From a virus (Duplodnaviria > Caudoviricetes), in IMG/VR virus record IMGVR_UViG_3300022670_001120, positions 1 to 42,099 of that record: a stretch of 42,099 nt of DNA; one strand, given 5' to 3'. The notes below the pieces were generated by a model that was not told the DNA's origin, made no database searches, and was given only the letters and a program-made list of their open reading frames with translations. The position numbers and the translations under genes were made by a program. Below are positions 18,807 to 42,099 of this stretch, piece after piece (position 1 is the first letter of the stretch; every line of letters begins with the position of its first letter).

Positions 18807-18938
18807 GATCTGTTAAATATCAGAGTGATAATGAGAACTAAATTAATGGAAACTTTCTTTATGTGTCCTATTCTACACACATAAAATGAATTTATTGAAT
18901 AGGGATAATCTTTTATGCTTCACACACTCATATCTTGC

Positions 18939-19103
18939 ATGGCCAAAGAGTTTCGTTCCATTCGAATTTCAGATAAACTAATCGTAAGACTAGAGAGATA
19001 TCTTGCATCAAGAGAGGCAAATGATTTGGGTATTGAAACTCTAAAGGATGCACTAGAGCATCAAGTAAGAAAAGGACTGGTATCAAAAACCTATAGTGAT
19101 TGA
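18939..19103 (+). CDS. Ribbon-helix-helix DNA-binding protein
   Basis: FRSIRISDKLIVRLERYL pattern; TTTTAT about 25 nt upstream of ATG 18939. Confidence 0.6.
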   Translation: MAKEFRSIRISDKLIVRLERYLASREANDLGIETLKDALEHQVRKGLVSKTYSD

Positions 19104-27181: not shown

Positions 27182-27308
27182 CGTATGAAATTAAGATATA
27201 CTGTGGGTTTGTAATACCTTGATTCATTACTTTAAGATGGTGTTAGTATTATTTATTGATGGATCGAATTTCCCATGAATGGAATATAAAAAACCAAAGT
27301 TGGGAAAT

Positions 27309-27849
27309 CGTAAGCCCAATATGGTTTTCAATTTCTTACTGACTCGTCGTATTACAATGGGTTTCAAACTTCTATTGACTCGTAAACTTTCCATGGTTTT
27401 CACTTTATTAGTGAACTCGTAATCCTCCTTTGGTTTTCACATGATGGGTGACTCGTTAGAGCATGTTGGTTTTCATTACTTTCATGACTCGTATGGGGAT
27501 TGTGGGTTTCATCCGTTTACTGACTCGCATTGGTTCAAAGGGTTTCAATGGGTATATGACTCGTAATCATCCCTGGGTTTCAGTCTTTCAGTGACTCGGT
27601 ATCTTCCTTGGGTTTCACATATTCTTTGACTCGTAATCTTATTGGGGGTTTCATGTTGTTCTATGACTCGTAATCTTGTTATGGGTTTCATGTTGTTCAA
27701 TGACTCGTAATCATACTGTGGGTTTCAAACATTTCGTGACTCGTTTGTGCTTAATGGGTTTCAATGGGTATATGACTCGTAATCCATGTATGGTTTTCAC
27801 ACTTACTATAACTCGTTCTCTCTCAATGGGTTTCATTATTTAGATGACT
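27309..27849 (-). ncRNA. TIGR-like guide RNA array, 15 units of 35-37 nt
   Basis: Minus-strand unit AGTCA-N9-TGAAA(C/A)CCA-N9-NACG; plus-strand TGACT (or variant) at 27340, 27376, 27412, 27449, 27485, 27521, 27557, 27592, 27627, 27664, 27701, 27737, 27773, 27809, 27845; downstream of a Nop-domain gene. Confidence 0.9.
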
Positions 27850-28051
27850 TCTTAACTCTCTTTGTTCCATTATTTATTGAACCCATATCAAATGACCAAT
27901 TATAATCACATGGTTCACAGTGGAAATTAATCAGGTTCCTTGTTATTTTATAAATGGTTCCCACCTTGAGACATTTTGTACATTTGTTACCATATCCCAA
28001 CATTATGAAAAACTCATCAAGGAGATCTGAATCTTCTTTAATTAGTTTCAT
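27836..28051 (-). CDS. Small Zn-finger protein (start revised to 28051)
   Basis: ATGA overlap with the tasA-like stop; CTKC...CEPC; the revised start aligns with paralog 24398..24616. Confidence 0.7.
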   Translation of the reverse strand: MKLIKEDSDLLDEFFIMLGYGNKCTKCLKVGTIYKITRNLINFHCEPCDYNWSFDMGSINNGTKRVKKSSK

Positions 28052-28863
28052 TCGTCTGTAAAGGCCTCCACCACTGAATGGCCCAACAGTTGTTTTGCAT
28101 ATGGTTCTGTAGCTTCTAATTTCTCTTGCCTTCTCCATGTTTGCCAAACATGTGCAAGAAATATTTTAGAAACTTTTCTTAATGCACGATTATGAATGTG
28201 TCCGTCATTGTATAATGTACGGCCATTCTTTACAATCTTTGTGGGATGTTCTTTTCTCTCCTTTCTTTTTATGGTATCATACAATTTACGATATTTTGAT
28301 TTAGCTGCTGATTGTTTCACAAATGACCCAGATGCCTTCCAAGCTAATACTTTGAGACGGTCATTCCAGTTTGATTGATATCCAATAATTCTTTTTTGTA
28401 GGATTGGTTCAGTTTTAGTTTGGCAAATAGGGCATGCTTCCATGGGGTGTAGCTTCTTTGCTTTCTTTCCTGTCTCATATTCTACTTCAAGATATGTTGG
28501 TTTCTTACATTGTGGGCAGAACCTATTCATCCCATACCCAGAATACTGCCACAAGCTAGACACATGATCAAACTTTCCTATATCATCAATGTATGAAATT
28601 AGTCCAGCAGCAATTAACGGTCCAATTCCCCTAATCTTTGAGAGATACTGTGTGTATAGTGCGTGGTTCTTTAGTTGTCTTACTATTAATTTTTCAATAT
28701 CTTTCTCAAATGCTCCAGCATTCTCCAATATTGTAGTAATTCCATATACTGAGAGTTCTTCTTTGGTTAGTGTGTTTTCTCTCTCTGATGCACCTATTCT
28801 TAATTGAGTTTGAATTCTCTGTGCCTGGAAATCATAGTAAATATCCACAAGATTTCTCAGCAA
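28048..28863 (-). CDS. tasA: TasA-like Nop-domain (IS110 C-terminal related) RNA-guided DNA-binding protein; may start at ATA 28989
   Basis: Coiled coil, LSKIRGIGPLIAAGLIS, HVSSLWQYSG, GHIHNRALRKVSKIFL; no RuvC or HNH domain; adjacent dual-repeat array. Confidence 0.8.
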   Translation of the reverse strand: MLRNLVDIYYDFQAQRIQTQLRIGASERENTLTKEELSVYGITTILENAGAFEKDIEKLIVRQLKNHALYTQYLSKIRGIGPLIAAGLISYIDDIGKFDHVSSLWQYSGYGMNRFCPQCKKPTYLEVEYETGKKAKKLHPMEACPICQTKTEPILQKRIIGYQSNWNDRLKVLAWKASGSFVKQSAAKSKYRKLYDTIKRKERKEHPTKIVKNGRTLYNDGHIHNRALRKVSKIFLAHVWQTWRRQEKLEATEPYAKQLLGHSVVEAFTDE

Positions 28864-28985: not shown

Positions 28986-29849
28986 CTATTTCTTAACATC
29001 CCCTTTTGTTAGGTCTAGTCCTACCTTTGGAGCTGCAATGTCTATGATGTAATGATATATTCCACGCATTGCAAAGGTGTCTCTTTTTTCTGCAAGTTCT
29101 ATTACTTTGGGTGATTTGAGTAACAGTTTGCCGAGTTCTATCATTTTTTCATCTGGTACTTTATTTTCAAAGTATACTCTGAAAAAATTCCTTAAAATGG
29201 TGTAACGATAAAATGGTGATTCAGTATTTGTTGCTATCTGGTATAATACTGGTACAAAGAGTTTGACCTTCTTGGTGTCAAGAGATGTTATTCCCTGGAT
29301 AAAGTCATCAACAGCTACTGGTCTTACAGGTCTTATTGATGTGCTCTTTGCATAGTGTAGCCAGTTTAGAACAACAGCATAGCGAAACTTTGATACACTA
29401 TTGTAATGATCACATACCTCTCTTAGCTCATTGAAATATGAAATTCTTCCAGTATCTAGTGCTTTAAGATGGTCTCCAAGTGTTAGGGGTTTTCCCAAAT
29501 TTAGTCGTCTATAAATTTCGCGTTGATTCCCTCCAGTATAAATAAATAAAATTAGATCATATGCTAATAATCCATAATATTCTCTAGCATAACGCAATCC
29601 AGCAATTCTATGTTGTCCATCAATAATGTGATATTTTACTTTCTCAGTTCCTGAAACTACACGTAGTGTATTATCTACGAATTTGTTATCCATGATTGCG
29701 TTTGCGATTCTTCCGATTTTAGTAGGGGATATTTTCCTCTCAAATAATGCAGGTGCAAATGTTTTTTCTAAATCTTCGAGTTTAAAATCATTAAGATAAA
29801 CTATCTCTGCCTTTGGTGGCATGTATACAGTTGAACGTGTTTGGCTCAT
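28986..29849 (-). CDS. ParB/Srx-superfamily DGQHR protein
   Basis: FERKIS, IIDGQHRIAGL, YRRLNLGKPL. Confidence 0.75.
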   Translation of the reverse strand: MSQTRSTVYMPPKAEIVYLNDFKLEDLEKTFAPALFERKISPTKIGRIANAIMDNKFVDNTLRVVSGTEKVKYHIIDGQHRIAGLRYAREYYGLLAYDLILFIYTGGNQREIYRRLNLGKPLTLGDHLKALDTGRISYFNELREVCDHYNSVSKFRYAVVLNWLHYAKSTSIRPVRPVAVDDFIQGITSLDTKKVKLFVPVLYQIATNTESPFYRYTILRNFFRVYFENKVPDEKMIELGKLLLKSPKVIELAEKRDTFAMRGIYHYIIDIAAPKVGLDLTKGDVKK

Positions 29850-31116: not shown

Positions 31117-31266
31117 TCATTTCAGGCCCTTTTTCAGAGTTTCATTAATTACAGAAGACATTGAAACTGAACCTTTTGTTTTTCTTATCTTGTCAGCTTG
31201 TATCATTCTAAGTTTCCTTTGGGTCTCTCTATCGATCATAATTGTAATCCTATCCTGCTCTAACAA
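31117..31266 (-). CDS. 49-aa RHH-like regulator (not in ORF track)
   Basis: MLEQDRITIMIDRETQRKLRMIQADKIRKTKGSVSMSSVINETLKKGLK; TATATTAA about 25 nt upstream. Confidence 0.7.
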   Translation of the reverse strand: MLEQDRITIMIDRETQRKLRMIQADKIRKTKGSVSMSSVINETLKKGLK

Positions 31267-31371: not shown

Positions 31372-31614
31372 ATGAAGACGATTAAAAGGATTCACTGGGA
31401 GGTAGTCATACTCATCATTGAAAGTGTACTAGAAAATCCCAAAATATTACGCACGCCCCTAGCACAAAAATGCAATAGAAATTATCAACAGATGACAAGA
31501 TATCTTGAACAAATGGAATTAACAGAATTAATAATTCTTGTAGAAGAGAATAATAAAACTTTCATCAGGATTACTGAGCTTGGAAAAAGAGTTTTACTAA
31601 AATCAAAAGACTGA
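31372..31614 (+). CDS. Archaeal winged-helix regulator, candidate repressor
   Basis: RTPLAQKCNRNYQQMTRYLEQMEL...IRITELGKRVL. Confidence 0.8.
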   Translation: MKTIKRIHWEVVILIIESVLENPKILRTPLAQKCNRNYQQMTRYLEQMELTELIILVEENNKTFIRITELGKRVLLKSKD

Positions 31615-32665: not shown

Positions 32666-32924
32666 GAATTACATGCTTGAAATTCCAACACGTAGATTCA
32701 GCGATACCATGTTTGTATTGGGAATAATATTTTGTGTAATTGCATCTCTTTGGTTTTTGATGGCATTTCTCAGTAGTCTAAGTTATAGAGGTCCGGATCT
32801 AAATCTTGGTCTTTCACTTGTTTTTTTATTATTTACTATATTTTTAATGGCTGTTGGAAATAAGAAAGTAGTTGATCCTGATTATTTAATTACATTTCTA
32901 AGAGATTTTAACAAAAAAGACTAA
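32640..32924 (+). CDS. Two-TM membrane protein
   Basis: Two hydrophobic helices. Confidence 0.65.
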   Translation: MSHADSIVENYMLEIPTRRFSDTMFVLGIIFCVIASLWFLMAFLSSLSYRGPDLNLGLSLVFLLFTIFLMAVGNKKVVDPDYLITFLRDFNKKD

Positions 32925-33002
32925 CAACAGGAAGACGTCCTATACAGAGTAGTTATTCATTATAATAATTATTTTTCATAAAATCTGTTCAGACTATAAA
33001 TA

Positions 33003-33206
33003 ATGATTAAAAAAGCTAGGAAAACATATCGTGAATTCTTACAGATGATAATTAAATATAAAATATATCAGATCCAGAATTTTGAACACTATAGAGATGA
33101 ACCTGCTGGAGATGTTATTGATCTTGGAAAATTAATGCTAACAGGTTACGAAGATGAGTTGGAGATATTGTTAGAGCTTAAAAGTTTGGAATTAATAGAG
33201 AAATGA
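33003..33206 (+). CDS. Hypothetical protein
   Basis: ATGA-coupled to the next gene. Confidence 0.55.
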   Translation: MIKKARKTYREFLQMIIKYKIYQIQNFEHYRDEPAGDVIDLGKLMLTGYEDELEILLELKSLELIEK

Positions 33207-36423: not shown

Positions 36424-37263
36424 TTAAGGAATGTAGGAAGGCAATACTTCACTAATCATTACATTCCAAATCAAGTGGATGGACTTTTGTGAACCTTGCA
36501 TGTTCAACAATATTCCTCTTACTTTCTCGTTTTTCTCAAGCTTCATACCAATTGCCATAAAATCAGCTTCAAGATCTGGGTAATCATGAGTAAGTCTGAC
36601 CATATTTCTAAACATTGGAGATTTTGAAAGATGAGTACTTTTCAAAGTTTCACCGTTTGCCTTTACTGCTTCTATTGCCAAAGTGACTGCTTTACTCTCT
36701 TGGGGAGTTATGCTAAGGAATAAATCCCTTGTTTCTGTTCTGTAACTCGCTATAGATTGTGCACTATTGTTTCTTACATACAATATTGCCATCAATGCAT
36801 CTGCATAGCAAAATTCAGTCTTGCTTCGGTAGTGATTCATGAATTTCCTATTCTCTTCAAAGTATGGAACGGTACCATCGTCTAGTGCTTTTGTGAAATC
36901 CCTTACAGTTAATGCTCTTCCTGAGTTGGAATTTACATATGCTTCTCTTTCTAATTTCTTGTCAAAAATATGAAGTACCAAATGAAATGTTTTTACTCCA
37001 TAGTCTTTGTAAGCCATTTTCAAAGCTTCTAGTCTGTGTTGTCCATCAAAGATTGAATATCTGTTCTCACCGATTTTGGTTCCCATAATAGTGTGGTTGT
37101 GCATCTTTTCTGAGATTATAGATTCTAGAATTTTGTTCACACTTGAAATATTTACCTTTCTCTCAAATTCTGCATATTCAAACATCTCAGATATTTTTGA
37201 CAAATCAAAGTTATCCAATTGAATAATGCTGAAGTCTTTTTGTGATTGTGTTTTCATAGTCAT
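36424..37263 (-). CDS. Second ParB/Srx-superfamily DGQHR protein
   Basis: FERKVN, IFDGQHRLEAL, NSGRALT..D..KALDDG; aligns with 28986..29849. Confidence 0.75.
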   Translation of the reverse strand: MTMKTQSQKDFSIIQLDNFDLSKISEMFEYAEFERKVNISSVNKILESIISEKMHNHTIMGTKIGENRYSIFDGQHRLEALKMAYKDYGVKTFHLVLHIFDKKLEREAYVNSNSGRALTVRDFTKALDDGTVPYFEENRKFMNHYRSKTEFCYADALMAILYVRNNSAQSIASYRTETRDLFLSITPQESKAVTLAIEAVKANGETLKSTHLSKSPMFRNMVRLTHDYPDLEADFMAIGMKLEKNEKVRGILLNMQGSQKSIHLIWNVMISEVLPSYIP

Positions 37264-38337: not shown

Positions 38338-38808
38338 TCAAGGATTAATGACTAACCATGCAGATCCATATGGAGCAGCTGATGGACCTGGTTTACCATC
38401 TTTCCAAAATCTAATTCTTCCCCTGTGAAAATATACCTTGACAAAATCATTCTCTGTAACATATCTCTGCCACCATCTAGTGTCAGTTTTAGCATAAATC
38501 AAAATGATACATGGTACTCCCCAAGCGATACTCTGGTTAATTGCATACTCTAACCACTCCTCTTTGTTAGAATATGGAGGATTCATGAAAAATGGTTTAT
38601 TCCATAAATGATCAAAGCCATTTCTATGTTCTGGATTTGGATGGTCTGGTCCATACCATTTGAAACACTTTGTTGTTTTACTTGTTGCACACACATCAAT
38701 CTCAGGATAAATCTTCACTTTATTACAAAACTCTTTAAAAATATCTGGCGGTGTCTCCCACAAATCATGAACACCTATTGATTGTAAATGTTGAATTGAT
38801 TTGTTCAA
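38338..38808 (-). CDS. Phage-type DNA N6-adenine methyltransferase
   Basis: DLWETP, IDVCA, FMNPPYS, KTDTRWW, GRIRF. Confidence 0.85.
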   Translation of the reverse strand: MNKSIQHLQSIGVHDLWETPPDIFKEFCNKVKIYPEIDVCATSKTTKCFKWYGPDHPNPEHRNGFDHLWNKPFFMNPPYSNKEEWLEYAINQSIAWGVPCIILIYAKTDTRWWQRYVTENDFVKVYFHRGRIRFWKDGKPGPSAAPYGSAWLVINP

Positions 38809-38930
38809 TGTTCTTCTCTATTCTTGGCAGAAGGTAAGAACCATTATTACAAAAAGAGAGTAAAGAGAGAGTTACCCTATAATAATAAAATATTTTTTTA
38901 GAAAAAATAAAAAAAAGATAAGTAAGGACT

Positions 38931-39173
38931 TTACTTGTCACTCTTTACACTATCCTCACTCTTTTGGGTAGAGACTGGCAGATAACGCCAAGTCTTCATT
39001 TTTGGGTCGAAATGAACTGTATGCTCATATCGATGTCTGAACCAGGACTTGATGGCTTTGTATTGCCAAATGGACATATCCAAGAGGTCAATCAGATCAA
39101 ACTCATGTATTACACCAGAATTTTTTATCTGGTTTACCATTCTGTTTGCAATTTTTGCCTGACCTCTATTCAC
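38931..39173 (-). CDS. Small hypothetical, possibly winged-helix
   Basis: Coupled to 39170..39400. Confidence 0.5.
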   Translation of the reverse strand: MNRGQAKIANRMVNQIKNSGVIHEFDLIDLLDMSIWQYKAIKSWFRHRYEHTVHFDPKMKTWRYLPVSTQKSEDSVKSDK

Positions 39174-39400
39174 TTGACCACCACTTGCTCAGATTTAACA
39201 AGCGGGATATAGCCATCAGCAGTCTCCTCATTACATCTCTCACAGGTAAAATCCCCTTGAGTTTCAGGGTTTACCGGATGGACAGTGAGATGGTCAGGGA
39301 GTCCTAATCCTTTGACTAATTTTGTATTCTTCAACATAAACTCTGAAAGTGTACCAAAGCACCTAGAGCATATGAAGAATTTATCTTCACGTGTTTGCAT
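39170..39400 (-). CDS. Small Zn-finger protein
   Basis: CSRC...CERC; motif variant TAGTTCCCT 26 nt upstream. Confidence 0.6.
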   Translation of the reverse strand: MQTREDKFFICSRCFGTLSEFMLKNTKLVKGLGLPDHLTVHPVNPETQGDFTCERCNEETADGYIPLVKSEQVVVK

Positions 39401-39470
39401 AGTCTGAACGATTCCTATACACTAAAGGGAACTAAAAAGGGATCGATCTAGAGTTTTTCTAAATTTTACA

Positions 39471-39488
39471 AGTATCTCATGAGATACA
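39471..39488. promoter_or_regulatory. 18-bp palindromic operator
   Basis: agtatctcatgagataca (16-bp perfect core). Confidence 0.7.
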
Positions 39489-39504
39489 GAGTTTTCTGAA
39501 CGTG

Positions 39505-39578
39505 AAGAGTGGCGTGATAGCCAGGCCCTCATAATTGTTCAGACTATGAAAACTGAACTGACTACCACGCCAATCTCA
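39505..39578 (-). ncRNA. Candidate structured small antisense RNA
   Basis: 15-bp stem (39510-39524/39558-39572) fully closed by G-U pairs on the minus strand; inner hairpin; TTTATAA about 25 nt upstream. Confidence 0.6.
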
Positions 39579-39630
39579 TTCATACTTTAACATGTTATAA
39601 ACTTAATCAGAATTTCCCTAGTGTGGGAAG

Positions 39631-39648
39631 TGTAACCTATAGGATACA
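39631..39648. promoter_or_regulatory. 18-bp palindromic operator
   Basis: tgtaacctataggataca. Confidence 0.65.
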
Positions 39649-39736
39649 ATCAAAAATTATAGTTAGTAAGAACTGTTTTTTTTAATATATGAATTATTTA
39701 ATAATTGTTTTAGTATTTAGTATTATTTCCACATTA

Positions 39737-41056
39737 CTAGTTGTTATCTTTTATTCTTTTCCAAGACTTTAGTAACTCCGATTGCATTGCTGGATTGTTC
39801 TGGTATTGCATCATGTTTTCAAGTTTTGAACGGGTGATTATAGATAACTTTTCATCCATCTCTTTTAATTTCTCATCCATTGTTTTTTCTAATTTAATTC
39901 CAGTGATCGTATTTACTGGTCTTCCACACTTGTAGCAAAAGTCTGCATCAATAGGATTTTCTGTTCTACATACCTGGCATACAATATGTGGATTGTTCTT
40001 TGTCTTCTTTTTAGCATTTAATCCATGATATTCTCGGAGTGCATCATCTACATCTTCATCTACAATATGCTGATATTTTGCAAGCATTCTAGTCATTGGA
40101 GACCAACCGTGCCTCTTTTTTGTCTGACCATCAGAGAGTGGTCCTATCATTCTAGTAACCTCTGAATGTCTAAACAAATTAAGATAGATTCGTTTTCTAA
40201 TTCCTGCTTGTTTTGCCAGGTTTTTTAATGTCTGGAGTGCTGTTTTGTGGGTTAGTGGTCGTCCTCTGTATCCCTTTTGGAACTGTATCCATAAAGGCCA
40301 TTCCACATTATCACGGAATGGGTGGGAGTTGAGCCATTGTGCAAGTGCAGGAGCTGATTCCACTAGAAGGATGTTTCGTGCCACAGTCTTTCCACTAACT
40401 GCAATTTTAAATCCAATATCATTATGTGTTACATTTTTCAAATAGATGTTTAGAACTTCACCGGGTCTAGCTCCTGACTCCCACAATACCCAGATAAAAG
40501 CACGCCACATCGTATCGCCATTACATCCTTCTAGAATTGCATCTCTATCGTCTTCAGTTAGTAGGGATTCTCGTACTAGAGTATCTTTGATTTTTTTAAT
40601 CTTGACATTTTTTATTAGTTTATGACATTGTACGTTATCAATTGCTGCAATGTCATGAGTTCCAGTGAAATACCAGCGAATAAAATGACGTAGGTATTTT
40701 TTTAAATCACTTGTAGTGTTTGATTCTTGGCCATCTTTAGTGGCATATTTTTTCATTATTTTTGTAACTATTCCGTCAATGTCAGATGAGGTGATTGATT
40801 TCTCCCAATTCTTGCCATACATTATGGTGATATTCTTTAGTGATTGCATTGCTTTGAGACGTGTTGCTTTGGCCTTTGATTGATTAATGAAATATCCATC
40901 AAATCCAAAAATTAGTTCTGCGTTATGTTTAGTTAATTGCTCTTTTACTAAAATTTCTATATTCTCTAATCTTTGATCATACTTGTGTACGTCAATTTGT
41001 ACAGGTGCATCCTCAACTGTTAGGTCCCCATACGGGTTTGCCTTTTTCCTTCTCAT
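39737..41056 (-). CDS. int: Tyrosine integrase with C-terminal Zn ribbon
   Basis: ESGARPGE, SGKT, LFRHS, HGW, catalytic KYQH; CQVC...CYKC. Confidence 0.92.
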   Translation of the reverse strand: MRRKKANPYGDLTVEDAPVQIDVHKYDQRLENIEILVKEQLTKHNAELIFGFDGYFINQSKAKATRLKAMQSLKNITIMYGKNWEKSITSSDIDGIVTKIMKKYATKDGQESNTTSDLKKYLRHFIRWYFTGTHDIAAIDNVQCHKLIKNVKIKKIKDTLVRESLLTEDDRDAILEGCNGDTMWRAFIWVLWESGARPGEVLNIYLKNVTHNDIGFKIAVSGKTVARNILLVESAPALAQWLNSHPFRDNVEWPLWIQFQKGYRGRPLTHKTALQTLKNLAKQAGIRKRIYLNLFRHSEVTRMIGPLSDGQTKKRHGWSPMTRMLAKYQHIVDEDVDDALREYHGLNAKKKTKNNPHIVCQVCRTENPIDADFCYKCGRPVNTITGIKLEKTMDEKLKEMDEKLSIITRSKLENMMQYQNNPAMQSELLKSWKRIKDNN

Positions 41057-41407
41057 AGTCTGAACACCCCAAATAGAATTGTACAGTAATTAAATGTGAT
41101 CGGATGTGGGGGATGTCCCAAATGAATGAGTGCCAGGGGCGGGCATGAACACAAATGGGACATCTCGATCACTGTATTGTTAGGCTGCTCAATAATGGAG
41201 ATTTGCTGCATCATAACCCCAATTGTACGGCTTTGTAATAAGACCGATGAATTGTACAATTTCACAAAGAGAGTCATTCGTAGATATACCCCCCGCAAAC
41301 ACCACATCTTGGTATCATTCTTGTAGATGAGAAATCACGATTGCAACCTTTACAGTGAATAATTCGAAGCTTACATTTTTCTAAATATCTTTTTGCTAGG
41401 CCTGGAT

Positions 41408-41881
41408 TCATTTCAATCCCTCTATATTTTGTTTGTAGGTCTCTCTGATATCATCGCATTGTTTTGTGTCACATTGTACCTCTCCTAGAATTACTTGGCT
41501 TTGCCATGATGATTCTTGCCAAGGCATACTCCAAAGTAATGATTCGTTCTCACTCTCATGAGCCCACGATTCAATGGTTATCCAGCATCTGTTCTCAACT
41601 AGTTGTTTTGATGCAGACTGAATTGTTTGGTACATTTCTTGAGCTTCTTTCATAGGATTTGATGTTTGTTGTCCATCCTCTTTTACACTCTCATAATATG
41701 ATACCAACTCATCTATTGCATTGGCACAGTCAAAAGTGCTAGGAATCATTTTGACTTTAATTTCTGTAGCTGTTTGTGCTACTTCTGATACTTGTTCGCT
41801 AACTTCAGCGTTAAAAAATACGAGTCCAGTAATTGCAAGAATAGCTACTACTCCGATTATTGTAATGTGTTTTTTTTCCAT
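41408..41881 (-). CDS. Membrane-anchored protein
   Basis: N-terminal TM helix; four Cys. Confidence 0.65.
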   Translation of the reverse strand: MEKKHITIIGVVAILAITGLVFFNAEVSEQVSEVAQTATEIKVKMIPSTFDCANAIDELVSYYESVKEDGQQTSNPMKEAQEMYQTIQSASKQLVENRCWITIESWAHESENESLLWSMPWQESSWQSQVILGEVQCDTKQCDDIRETYKQNIEGLK

Positions 41882-41963
41882 AGCTTCTCATGTTACTTCT
41901 TGTATAATAAGTATAGCACACTACGCTATCCTTATATTGGTATAGCATGACAGTCTATACATC

Positions 41964-42099
41964 ATGAAACCCAAAATCCTTGAGGGTTTTGATCATGTCC
42001 TGTTTGTAATATGCCTTGTCCTTGGGGCAATGCATTTTGGACCATTACTCTGGCGTGTGACCGGTTTTACCATTGGCCACAGCATTACATTGTCCCTCG
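41964..42099 (+). CDS. Partial HupE/UreJ-family membrane protein (runs off the window)
   Basis: MKPKILEGFDHVLFVICL...VTGFTIGHSITLSL matches the G.DH.LF and FT.(A/G)HS.TL motifs. Confidence 0.65.
   Translation, partial: MKPKILEGFDHVLFVICLVLGAMHFGPLLWRVTGFTIGHSITLSL

What the first reader, a model, noticed from the sequence alone, without database searches (positions are those of the whole stretch)
39398..41066. Structured small RNA complementary to three start regions, including the integrase's
A minus-strand RNA (~39505-39578) folds into a 15-bp stem plus inner hairpin and contains UCAUAGUCUGAACA. Its complement lies in sense orientation over the integrase start (TGTTCAGACTATGA, 41053-41066, 14/14), over the start of 39170..39400 (GTTCAGACTATG, 39398-39409) and 5 nt before the start of 33003..33206 (TGTTCAGACTAT, 32986-32997). 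It has its own TATA-like box and sits between two operators. Inference: a trans-acting antisense regulator of lysogeny, reminiscent of P4 CI or P1 c4 RNAs. Alternative: DNA sites, since 39536-39549 and 41053-41066 are inverted repeats flanking int.
Basis: partly seen in the sequence, partly recalled or inferred. Interest (0 to 1): 0.82.

Follow-up and report, generated by a model that had tools for sequence, protein, structure and literature searches.

The report
Archaeal-virus antisense RNA silencing integrase
A marine-sediment virus, likely of ammonia-oxidising archaea, carries a conserved hairpin that is predicted to be a 70-base RNA and is complementary to the starts of its own integrase gene and two other genes, so it likely silences them together, a kind of control known from bacterial phages.

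Summary
Observation confirmed. The minus-strand hairpin (39505-39578) folds far better than shuffles (z -7.0) and than the opposite strand. Its loop and 5' arm match the integrase start (14/14), the Zn-finger gene start at 39400 (19/21) and a site just before 33003 (12/12). These are the top 3 of 47 gene starts. Among 8,406 control windows, only those over the hairpin match three starts.

One relative (L165; integrase 40% identical) keeps the hairpin, TATA-like box and operator. Its outer stem changes only by pair-preserving substitutions. Its single seed change is mirrored at its own integrase start. Over-long gene calls of Zn-finger homologs show the target motif conserved too.

Each site begins 26-28 nt after a TATA-like box, so the targets are probably the extreme 5' ends of short leaders with no Shine-Dalgarno motif.

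Best reading: a trans-acting antisense RNA that works like IS10 RNA-OUT or P1 C4 but belongs to neither family. A role in lysogeny is inferred. DNA inversion is unlikely. No transcript data exist, and only one DNA homolog was found. The scan's AI notes describe analogous, unrelated hairpins in other archaeal viruses.

The parts
39505..39578 (-). Predicted small RNA: 15-bp outer stem (39572-39558 / 39524-39510), 4-nt bulge, weak G-U-rich inner stem, 7-nt loop; 5' end predicted near 39575
   Evidence: Fold z -7.04; conserved in L165 2084-2158 with 15 of 15 outer pairs kept; coordinates
39533..39553 (-). Antisense tract: 5' arm of the inner stem plus the loop CUGAACA (39542-39536), the predicted toehold
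   Evidence: Pairing diagrams; accessibility-corrected energies
39594..39601 (-). TATA-like box of the RNA, 29 nt before the stem; a similar box lies at the same distance in L165
39632..39647 (.). GTATC-N6-GATAC palindrome upstream of the RNA promoter (likely operator); conserved at L165 2015
39472..39487 (.). GTATC-N6-GATAC palindrome between the RNA and the Zn-finger gene promoter (likely operator)
   Evidence: reads VSHEI/VSHRI in homolog N-terminal extensions
39614..39629 (.). TTCCC-N6-GGGAA palindrome just upstream of the RNA's TATA-like box; conserved in L165; a related palindrome at 39412-39431 lies between the Zn-finger gene's box and start
41050..41066 (-). Target 1: 10-nt leader plus start codon of the integrase; 17 contiguous pairs including one G-U
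   Evidence: compensatory change in L165
41087..41094 (-). TATA-like box of the integrase, 28 nt before the target site (same spacing in L165)
39737..41056 (-). Tyrosine integrase, 439 aa, with a C-terminal zinc ribbon
   Evidence: Pfam PF00589 E 1.9e-11; PHROG 1
39393..39413 (-). Target 2: leader and start codon of the 76-aa Zn-finger gene; 19 of 21 pairs
   Evidence: V-Q-T-M in 8 of 8 over-long homolog calls
39431..39438 (-). T-rich TATA-like box 28 nt before target 2
39170..39400 (-). 76-aa protein with two CxxC pairs; first gene of a leftward run towards the methyltransferase and terminase genes; function unassigned
   Evidence: no named family
32986..32997 (+). Target 3: first 12 nt of the predicted 17-nt leader of the 67-aa ORF; ends 5 nt before the ATG
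32915..32967 (+). Copy of a four-copy 50-nt promoter-like repeat ending in a TATA-like box (32960-32967), 26 nt before target 3
   Evidence: family D3
33003..33206 (+). 67-aa ORF, no family and no homolog found
37250..37261 (-). Possible weak fourth site: 12-nt match over the second ATG of the ParB-like gene 36424-37263; lacks the loop-pairing half
41130..41143 (-). Likely attP core: 14 nt identical to the 3' end of a host-type tRNA-Phe(GAA), inside an inverted repeat (about 41095-41175) upstream of the integrase promoter

Best explanation
The hairpin is likely a separately transcribed ~70-nt viral RNA whose loop is predicted to pair first with the free 5' end of three of the virus's own mRNAs and then zip through its weak inner stem over the short leader, which would block their translation. 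Shown: the sequence complementarity, its specificity within the genome, the conserved outer stem, and one matched RNA/integrase change in a relative. Inferred: (1) transcription from the TATA-like box at 39601; (2) target leaders that start at the site and have no Shine-Dalgarno motif; (3) loop-first pairing, as in IS10 RNA-OUT; (4) blocked ribosome loading, perhaps with decay of the duplex. On int and the Zn-finger gene the duplex covers the AUG; on 33003 it covers only the 5' end. Likely purpose (about 0.6 given the mechanism): the att-like core lies upstream of the int promoter, so integration would leave int intact and transcribable. The RNA would then keep integrase and the first gene of the adjacent early run quiet in the lysogen, as a second layer under a protein repressor that binds GTATC-N6-GATAC.
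For: Fold z -7.04 on minus versus -3.07 on plus; L165 -33.7 versus -15.6. Outer stem in window versus L165: 15 of 15 pairs kept, 4 vary (1 two-sided, 3 wobble-type that pair only on the minus strand). In the 14-nt seed the RNAs differ at one position and the int sites differ at one position, and these are the partners (roughly 1 in 30 by my arithmetic). That change breaks an inner-stem pair instead of being compensated there, so the base tracks the target. Targets rank 1-3 of 47 starts; 5 of 8,406 control windows hit three starts, all over the hairpin. A blind scan with automatic ORF calls recovered it in the window and found no other strongly folded element with three or more same-seed targets in 26 related virus or provirus regions. 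Accessibility-corrected energies at 37 C: int -14.1, Zn-finger -13.2, 33003 -11.1, versus -6.7 to +3.0 for 20 other starts. P0300's N-terminal extension equals the translation of L165 2116-2166 (17 of 17 residues), which places the L165-type hairpin directly upstream of a Zn-finger homolog. 8 of 8 over-long calls from 4 clusters read V-Q-T-M at the start while the two residues before vary. AT-rich boxes lie 26-28 nt before 4 of 4 sites, against 8% of positions genome-wide and 28 nt from box to ATG at neighbour 31678. No SD-like motif at the three targets.
Against: Only one homolog could be read as DNA, so the RNA/target covariation is a single event. The shuffle control on two sequences is uninformative (245 of 500 reach the observed value). 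Whole-molecule cofolding gives a net of only -0.3 kcal/mol for int and does not form the intended duplex for the other targets; that method cannot model pairing inside an intact hairpin. With accessibility, the L165 RNA pairs slightly better with the window's int (-11.7) than with its own (-10.4). In L165 the predicted loop is only 4 nt. The V-Q-T-M records are related, show no DNA, and the Thr codon hides the covarying base. Target 3's gene has no homolog or family and its AUG is not covered. TATA criteria were chosen after seeing the sites, and intergenic DNA is AT-richer than the genome-wide control. No clear terminator follows the hairpin (one search uses bacterial rules).
Confidence: 0.66

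Rival explanations
1. The hairpin is the 5' part of a longer transcript running into the Zn-finger operon. It acts by causing premature termination or processing of that transcript, as P4 CI does with seqC. The int and 33003 sites are secondary. This partly overlaps with the best reading.
For: The longest match (19/21) lies 100 nt downstream on the same strand. The arrangement is conserved. No clear terminator follows the hairpin. An extra 7-nt seed copy lies right after the stem at 39501-39495. P4 CI precedent: PMC4825925, passage.
Against: The Zn-finger gene has its own TATA-like box at the same spacing as int. Folding the whole precursor leaves the hairpin closed and unpaired with the site. 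The covarying target is int, 1.5 kb upstream. The extra seed copy is absent from the 15 bases that follow the stem in L165.
Confidence: 0.14
2. The RNA acts on transcription, not translation. It pairs with the nascent 5' end or with the unwound non-template strand at the start site, possibly as the guide of a viral or host protein, and so shuts the three promoters.
For: The shared feature of the sites is the predicted start of transcription, not the AUG. Site 3 does not cover its AUG. The genome encodes an RNA-guided-type Tas-like protein elsewhere.
Against: Pairing extends over and beyond the AUG on int, the Zn-finger gene and L165 int, with G-U pairs typical of RNA-RNA contacts. No partner protein gene is conserved next to the RNA other than int and the Zn-finger gene. 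The hairpin does not resemble the 36-nt array units.
Confidence: 0.09
3. TGTTCAGAC(T/A)AT is a start-associated tag bound by a protein, on DNA or mRNA. The hairpin copy is a further site or a plus-strand decoy RNA.
For: The motif sits at the same place relative to the TATA-like box in 4 of 4 cases. A shared change in L165 would also follow if one protein read all copies. The lead came from scan note e1-6489021.
Against: Folding energy and wobble covariation put the RNA on the minus strand, where the copy is antisense. The TATA-like box is conserved on that side only. Complementarity extends beyond the shared core differently for each target, as pairing predicts and a fixed tag does not. The plus-strand micro-ORF from the hairpin's ATG is not conserved: a stop follows at codon 3 in L165 (read).
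Confidence: 0.06
4. The 14-bp inverted repeats at 39536-39549 and 41053-41066 are recombination sites that flip the integrase gene between an on and an off orientation.
For: They are perfect inverted repeats flanking a recombinase gene, covariation would also be required for recombination, and the int frame would stay whole (439 aa) if flipped.
Against: It does not explain sites 2 and 3 or the wobble-covarying stem. The 14-mer is not palindromic. All molecules seen across the repeat are unflipped: X1 record 8 spans 38516-41976 unbroken, X2 record 16 and X4 record 31 bridge the left repeat, and L165 has the same orientation. None of the 15 joints shown changes strand, but 12 more were not shown and contigs drop rare variants.
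Confidence: 0.04

Closest known systems
IS10/Tn10 RNA-OUT (PMC4737173, passages read)
   Same: A short, stable hairpin whose loop starts pairing with the unstructured 5' end of a recombinase mRNA and blocks translation.
   Different: RNA-OUT is transcribed opposite its one target (recalled). This RNA is encoded elsewhere, pairs over only 12-19 nt, has at least three targets, and is in a likely archaeal virus whose targets lack an SD motif.
C4 antisense RNA of phages P1/P7 (PMC5320573, passages read)
   Same: Phage-encoded, about 75 nt, trans-acting on the phage's own genes near the translation start; small seed changes co-vary with targets.
   Different: C4 has three stem-loops, two separate recognition loops (a', b') and RNase P processing. 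This is one long hairpin with one contiguous site, no Rfam match, and it targets the integrase.
CI RNA of satellite phage P4 (PMC4825925, passage read)
   Same: Small RNA lying just upstream of a gene run it is complementary to, in a temperate element.
   Different: CI is processed from the transcript it terminates and pairs with seqA upstream and seqC downstream. Here no upstream site exists before the predicted 5' end, and the targets appear to have their own promoters.
Tant antisense RNA of halovirus phiH (PMC4284463, passage read) and HFTV1 asRNAs (PMC12542753, passages read)
   Same: Antisense control in an archaeal tailed virus; Tant acts on an early lytic transcript as part of immunity.
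   Different: Both are cis-encoded, transcribed from the strand opposite their target. This RNA is trans-encoded and multi-target.
sRNA162 of Methanosarcina mazei (PMC4152357, passages read)
   Same: Archaeal trans-acting sRNA that masks a translation start.
   Different: Cellular, pairs through an unstructured linker with an RBS in a long leader. That review expects control of leaderless transcripts to lie in the ORF or 3' UTR; here the sites are 10-17-nt leaders.

Membership tests
C4 antisense RNA (P1/P7) | Match to the Rfam model | tested here: not met
   No gathering-level match in the window; no C4-type hit up to E 10 in 39350-39750 or up to E 5 in L165
C4 antisense RNA (P1/P7) | Three stem-loops | tested here: not met
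   Single unbranched hairpin in both sequences
C4 antisense RNA (P1/P7) | Two separate loops pairing with bipartite a/b target sites | tested here: not met
   One contiguous tract pairs with each target
C4 antisense RNA (P1/P7) | Processing by RNase P from a longer precursor | not testable with these tools
   Needs RNA end mapping; predicted 5' end is only about 3 nt before the stem
C4 antisense RNA (P1/P7) | Maintains lysogeny and superinfection immunity | not testable with these tools
   Inferred only from the targets and the att-like site
P4 CI RNA | Complementary site downstream in the same transcription direction (seqC-like) | tested here: met
   39393-39413, 19 of 21 pairs
P4 CI RNA | Complementary site upstream within the same primary transcript (seqA-like) | tested here: not met
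   No antisense match of 9 nt or more on the minus strand between the RNA's box and the stem; the next upstream site is the int start
P4 CI RNA | Causes premature transcription termination | not testable with these tools
   Needs transcript mapping
IS10 RNA-OUT-type cis antisense RNA | Transcribed opposite the target's 5' end (feature recalled) | tested here: not met
   RNA locus is 1.5 kb, 0.1 kb and 6.5 kb from the three sites
IS10 RNA-OUT-type cis antisense RNA | Hairpin loop complementary to the target's free 5' end | tested here: inconclusive
   Loop is complementary to the first bases of each site; the 5' ends are predicted from box spacing only
phiH Tant-type archaeal viral antisense RNA | Cis-encoded on the strand opposite the target gene | tested here: not met
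   Intergenic locus, not overlapping any target
Invertible recombinase switch | Inverted repeats flanking the segment | tested here: met
   14/14 at 39536-39549 and 41053-41066
Invertible recombinase switch | Both orientations found in the population | tested here: inconclusive
   4 of 4 molecules seen across the repeat are unflipped; contigs hide rare forms

The most novel reading that the evidence does not exclude
An archaeal virus has built artificial 10-17-nt leaders onto otherwise leaderless-type promoters purely as address labels. One trans-encoded hairpin RNA reads these labels at the transcript 5' end and switches off integrase and early genes together. This is an RNA immunity module in which RNA and labels co-vary between viruses to set specificity, and it silences mRNAs by capping their 5' end without needing a Shine-Dalgarno site or even the AUG.
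Probability: 0.35. Interest if true: 0.85.

Novelty: new variant of a known kind. Interest (0 to 1): 0.7.

Why it matters
The antisense RNAs I found described for archaeal viruses are cis-encoded (phiH Tant, HFTV1). My searches returned no trans-encoded, multi-target RNA in an archaeal virus and no RNA control of an integrase in viruses of ammonia-oxidising archaea. The library lacks most subscription papers.

If real, this gives a compact, testable case for two open questions. One is how a small RNA can repress archaeal mRNAs that have almost no leader and no Shine-Dalgarno motif. The other is how a temperate virus with an unsplit integrase keeps it off. The natural window/L165 seed pair is a ready-made compensatory-mutation experiment. 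A 70-nt hairpin with a 12-17-nt programmable tract would also be a candidate tool for gene silencing in archaea.

Tried and rejected
Homolog searches that found nothing beyond L165:
- IMG/VR scans with the integrase and the Zn-finger alignment: no locus.
- IMG/VR motif scans (119, 17, 27 and 15 loci): no extended similarity by blastn or nhmmer.
- Of 108 integrase loci, only L165 matches the hairpin. The two-sequence covariance model found nothing in 100 of the other 107, nothing in 98 terminase-linked loci or pieces, and nothing in 151 host-family genomes. Many of these contigs end near the gene.
- Hairpin DNA against 401 host-family genomes: only short matches, best 35 nt. Zn-finger profile: 0 of 401 genomes and 0 of 53 virus records. 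Integrase profile: 0 of 35 terminase-related virus records.

Other dead ends:
- No RNA holder listed among 9 runs; this says nothing about expression.
- Letter-level variants of the hairpin in runs X2 and X4 were not among the rows shown, so they remain unread.
- The G412 candidate from the blind scan (two same-seed targets) was viewed. The seed is partly buried and the stretch looks coding; not pursued. The G421 and G427 candidates had unrelated or low-complexity seeds.
- No tRNA and no Rfam family in the window.
- The second hairpin 41095-41175 was first considered as an RNA. It is better read as attP.
- The YUNR-like CUGA in the loop is too common by chance to count.
- Families for the two small target proteins: none.
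- No look-alike stretch among the scan's notes.
Full report
Context. The window is a whole 42,099-bp virus record from marine sediment. It encodes a terminase (UniRef name; phage terminase matches), a weakly matched major head protein and tail proteins, and a tyrosine integrase at 39737-41056. The host is likely a Nitrososphaeria archaeon. All 28 GTDB loci with integrase relatives are titled Thaumarchaeota or its genera. Terminase relatives occur in 52 of 401 genomes of the family around a Nitrosopumilus record. That tally includes four genomes marked unpublished; no other claim rests on them.

The minus strand 39505-39578 folds at -37.2 kcal/mol, z -7.04, against -21.4 and z -3.07 for the plus strand. 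The outer stem has 15 pairs, the inner stem is G-U-rich, and the loop is CUGAACA. The tract made of the inner 5' arm and the loop pairs with the integrase start over 17 contiguous bases, with the Zn-finger gene start over 19 of 21, and with 12 bases before 33003. These three starts rank first to third of 47 by duplex energy. Of 8,406 control windows, the only five with antisense 12-mers at three starts overlie the hairpin; eight have two, and all eight overlie the hairpin or the antisense strand of the int start. A blind scan with automatic ORF calling recovered the element and added a weaker fourth site at the ParB-like gene. It found nothing comparable in 26 related virus or provirus regions.

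Conservation. One homolog was found as DNA: L165, a 2,166-bp metagenome contig whose integrase is 40% identical. Downstream of its integrase it keeps the GTATC operator, the TTCCC palindrome, the AT-rich box and the hairpin. All 15 outer pairs are kept, with four varying: one two-sided change and three wobble-type changes that pair only on the minus strand. With two sequences the shuffle control is uninformative (245 of 500). In the 14-nt seed the two RNAs differ at one base and the two integrase starts differ at one base, and these are pairing partners. The inner stem does not compensate this change, so the base follows the target and not the hairpin. This is a single event.

A second line of evidence comes from mis-called genes. 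Four of 9 Zn-finger homologs carry spurious N-terminal extensions that translate the upstream DNA. Across cluster members, 8 of 8 such extensions from 4 clusters end in V-Q-T-M, the in-frame reading of the target motif, while the two residues before it vary. P0300's first 17 residues equal the translation of L165 2116-2166. The L165-type hairpin therefore lies directly upstream of a Zn-finger homolog that keeps the site. These records are related, and the Thr codon hides the covarying base.

Where the sites lie. A TT-led AT-rich box starts 26-28 nt before the first base of each site: int, Zn-finger, 33003 and L165 int, 4 of 4. The genome-wide rate is 8%, and the criteria were set after the fact. 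The 33003 promoter is a copy of a four-copy repeat. In the copy before 31678 the same box lies 28 nt from the ATG, whereas at 33003 it lies 43 nt from the ATG, and the extra stretch is the target. None of the three targets has an SD-like motif. I infer that the sites are the extreme 5' ends of 10-17-nt leaders. By the same spacing the RNA would start near 39575.

Mechanism. The loop likely pairs first with the free 5' end, and pairing then extends through the weak inner stem. IS10 RNA-OUT works this way (PMC4737173, passages). Accessibility-corrected energies at 37 C are -14.1, -13.2 and -11.1 kcal/mol for the three targets, -7.4 for the fourth site, and -6.7 to +3.0 for 20 other starts (20 of the 34 starts listed in the script were scored). 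Two results go against this reading. Whole-molecule cofolding gave a net of -0.3 for int and did not form the intended duplex for the others, although that method cannot place a helix inside an intact hairpin. Cross-pairing was mixed: bare duplexes prefer cognate partners, but with accessibility the L165 RNA did slightly better on the window's int.

Biological role (inferred). A 14-nt stretch at 41130-41143 is identical to the 3' end of a tRNA-Phe(GAA) in genome G017. Shorter versions match tRNA-Phe in L405 and L239, and L165 has two similar copies. It sits in an inverted repeat upstream of the int promoter. Integration there would leave int whole and with its promoter, so it would need silencing. 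Seven GTATC-N6-GATAC palindromes (1.12 expected) flank the RNA, the divergent wHTH region and late-gene promoters, which points to a protein repressor above the RNA. The simplest reading is lysogen maintenance. The RNA could instead shut int and early genes during lytic growth; the sequence does not decide this.

Rivals. Attenuation within a longer transcript, as for P4 CI (PMC4825925, passage), fits the nearby 19/21 site but not the separate promoter box or the int covariation. Action on transcription start is possible, because the shared feature is the 5' end. A protein-bound start tag fails to explain the strand-specific stem and the target-specific extensions of pairing. Inversion would leave int in frame, but X1 record 8, X2 record 16, X4 record 31 (another study) and L165 are all unflipped. 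Of the joints, 12 of 27 were not shown.

Comparison. No Rfam family matches. It works like RNA-OUT in geometry and like P1 C4 in being trans-acting on the virus's own genes (PMC5320573, passages), but it fails the defining features of both. Archaeal viral antisense RNAs in the papers I read are cis-encoded (PMC4284463; PMC12542753; passages). The archaeal trans-acting model sRNA162 is cellular (PMC4152357, passages). A 2025 survey of Nitrososphaeria viruses has no occurrence of 'antisense', 'small RNA' or 'repressor' in its main text (bioRxiv 10.1101/2025.08.23.671958, term search; its supplements were not seen and could list this virus). PMC8940887 mentions antisense RNA only in a reference title. 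Other papers were seen as search listings only. The scan's own notes describe analogous anti-start hairpins in methanogen, peat and halophile viruses. None shares sequence with this one, I tested none, and they are not independent support.

Verdict. The element is real, specific and conserved, and most likely a trans-acting antisense RNA (0.66). It is confined to a small clade in the data I could reach. It is a new variant of a known kind. It remains untested as a transcript, and its lysogeny role is inferred.

Noticed in passing
window 27303-27856 and 28048-28863 (-): A 271-aa protein matching PDB 9mty_A (E 1e-29) and TasH 21kl_A (E 6e-9), followed by about 15 units of a 36-nt two-repeat array. 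It looks like a TIGR-Tas locus with a nuclease-less Tas; the system name and type are recalled. Spacer targets were not searched.
   Followed up: partly
window 41130-41143 (-), within 41095-41175; L165 about 372-450 and 470-545: Likely attP: 14-nt core identical to a tRNA-Phe(GAA) 3' end inside an inverted repeat. L165 carries two tandem att-like copies whose cores differ by one base.
   Followed up: partly
window 24332, 24373, 27165, 31303, 31343, 39472, 39632; L165 2015; L273 2177 and 4815; L272 5595: GTATC-N6-GATAC palindromes, 7 in the window against 1.12 expected. Likely operators of one repressor that also covers late-gene promoters.
   Followed up: partly
window 31120-31239 (-) and 31372-31614 (+): Divergent pair of a 40-aa basic protein and a winged-helix protein (Pfam HTH_45) with two operators between them: a candidate genetic switch.
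   Followed up: no
window 31605, 32151, 32915, 33439 (+): Four copies of a 50-nt promoter-like repeat, each between short plus-strand genes; a cassette-like accessory region.
   Followed up: partly
window 41085, 41229, 41253-41258, 31658, 32211, 33498, 34252; L165 87, 277, 307, 563: Recurrent GTACAATT-like motif near promoters and around the att-like site; could be a regulator or integrase arm site.
   Followed up: no
window 39495-39501 and 39553-39558 (-): Two extra short copies of the target seed (7 nt just after the stem, 6 nt across the bulge) could pair with the loop in a folding intermediate. Neither is clearly kept in L165.
   Followed up: no
window 36424-37263 and 28986-29849 (-): Two ParB-like proteins (PHROG 1033). 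The first has a 12-nt match to the RNA over its second ATG.
   Followed up: partly
L459 about 18930-19070 (-), record G412: A folded stretch with a 12-nt seed complementary to two gene-start regions of that related virus. It looks coding and is probably chance.
   Followed up: partly
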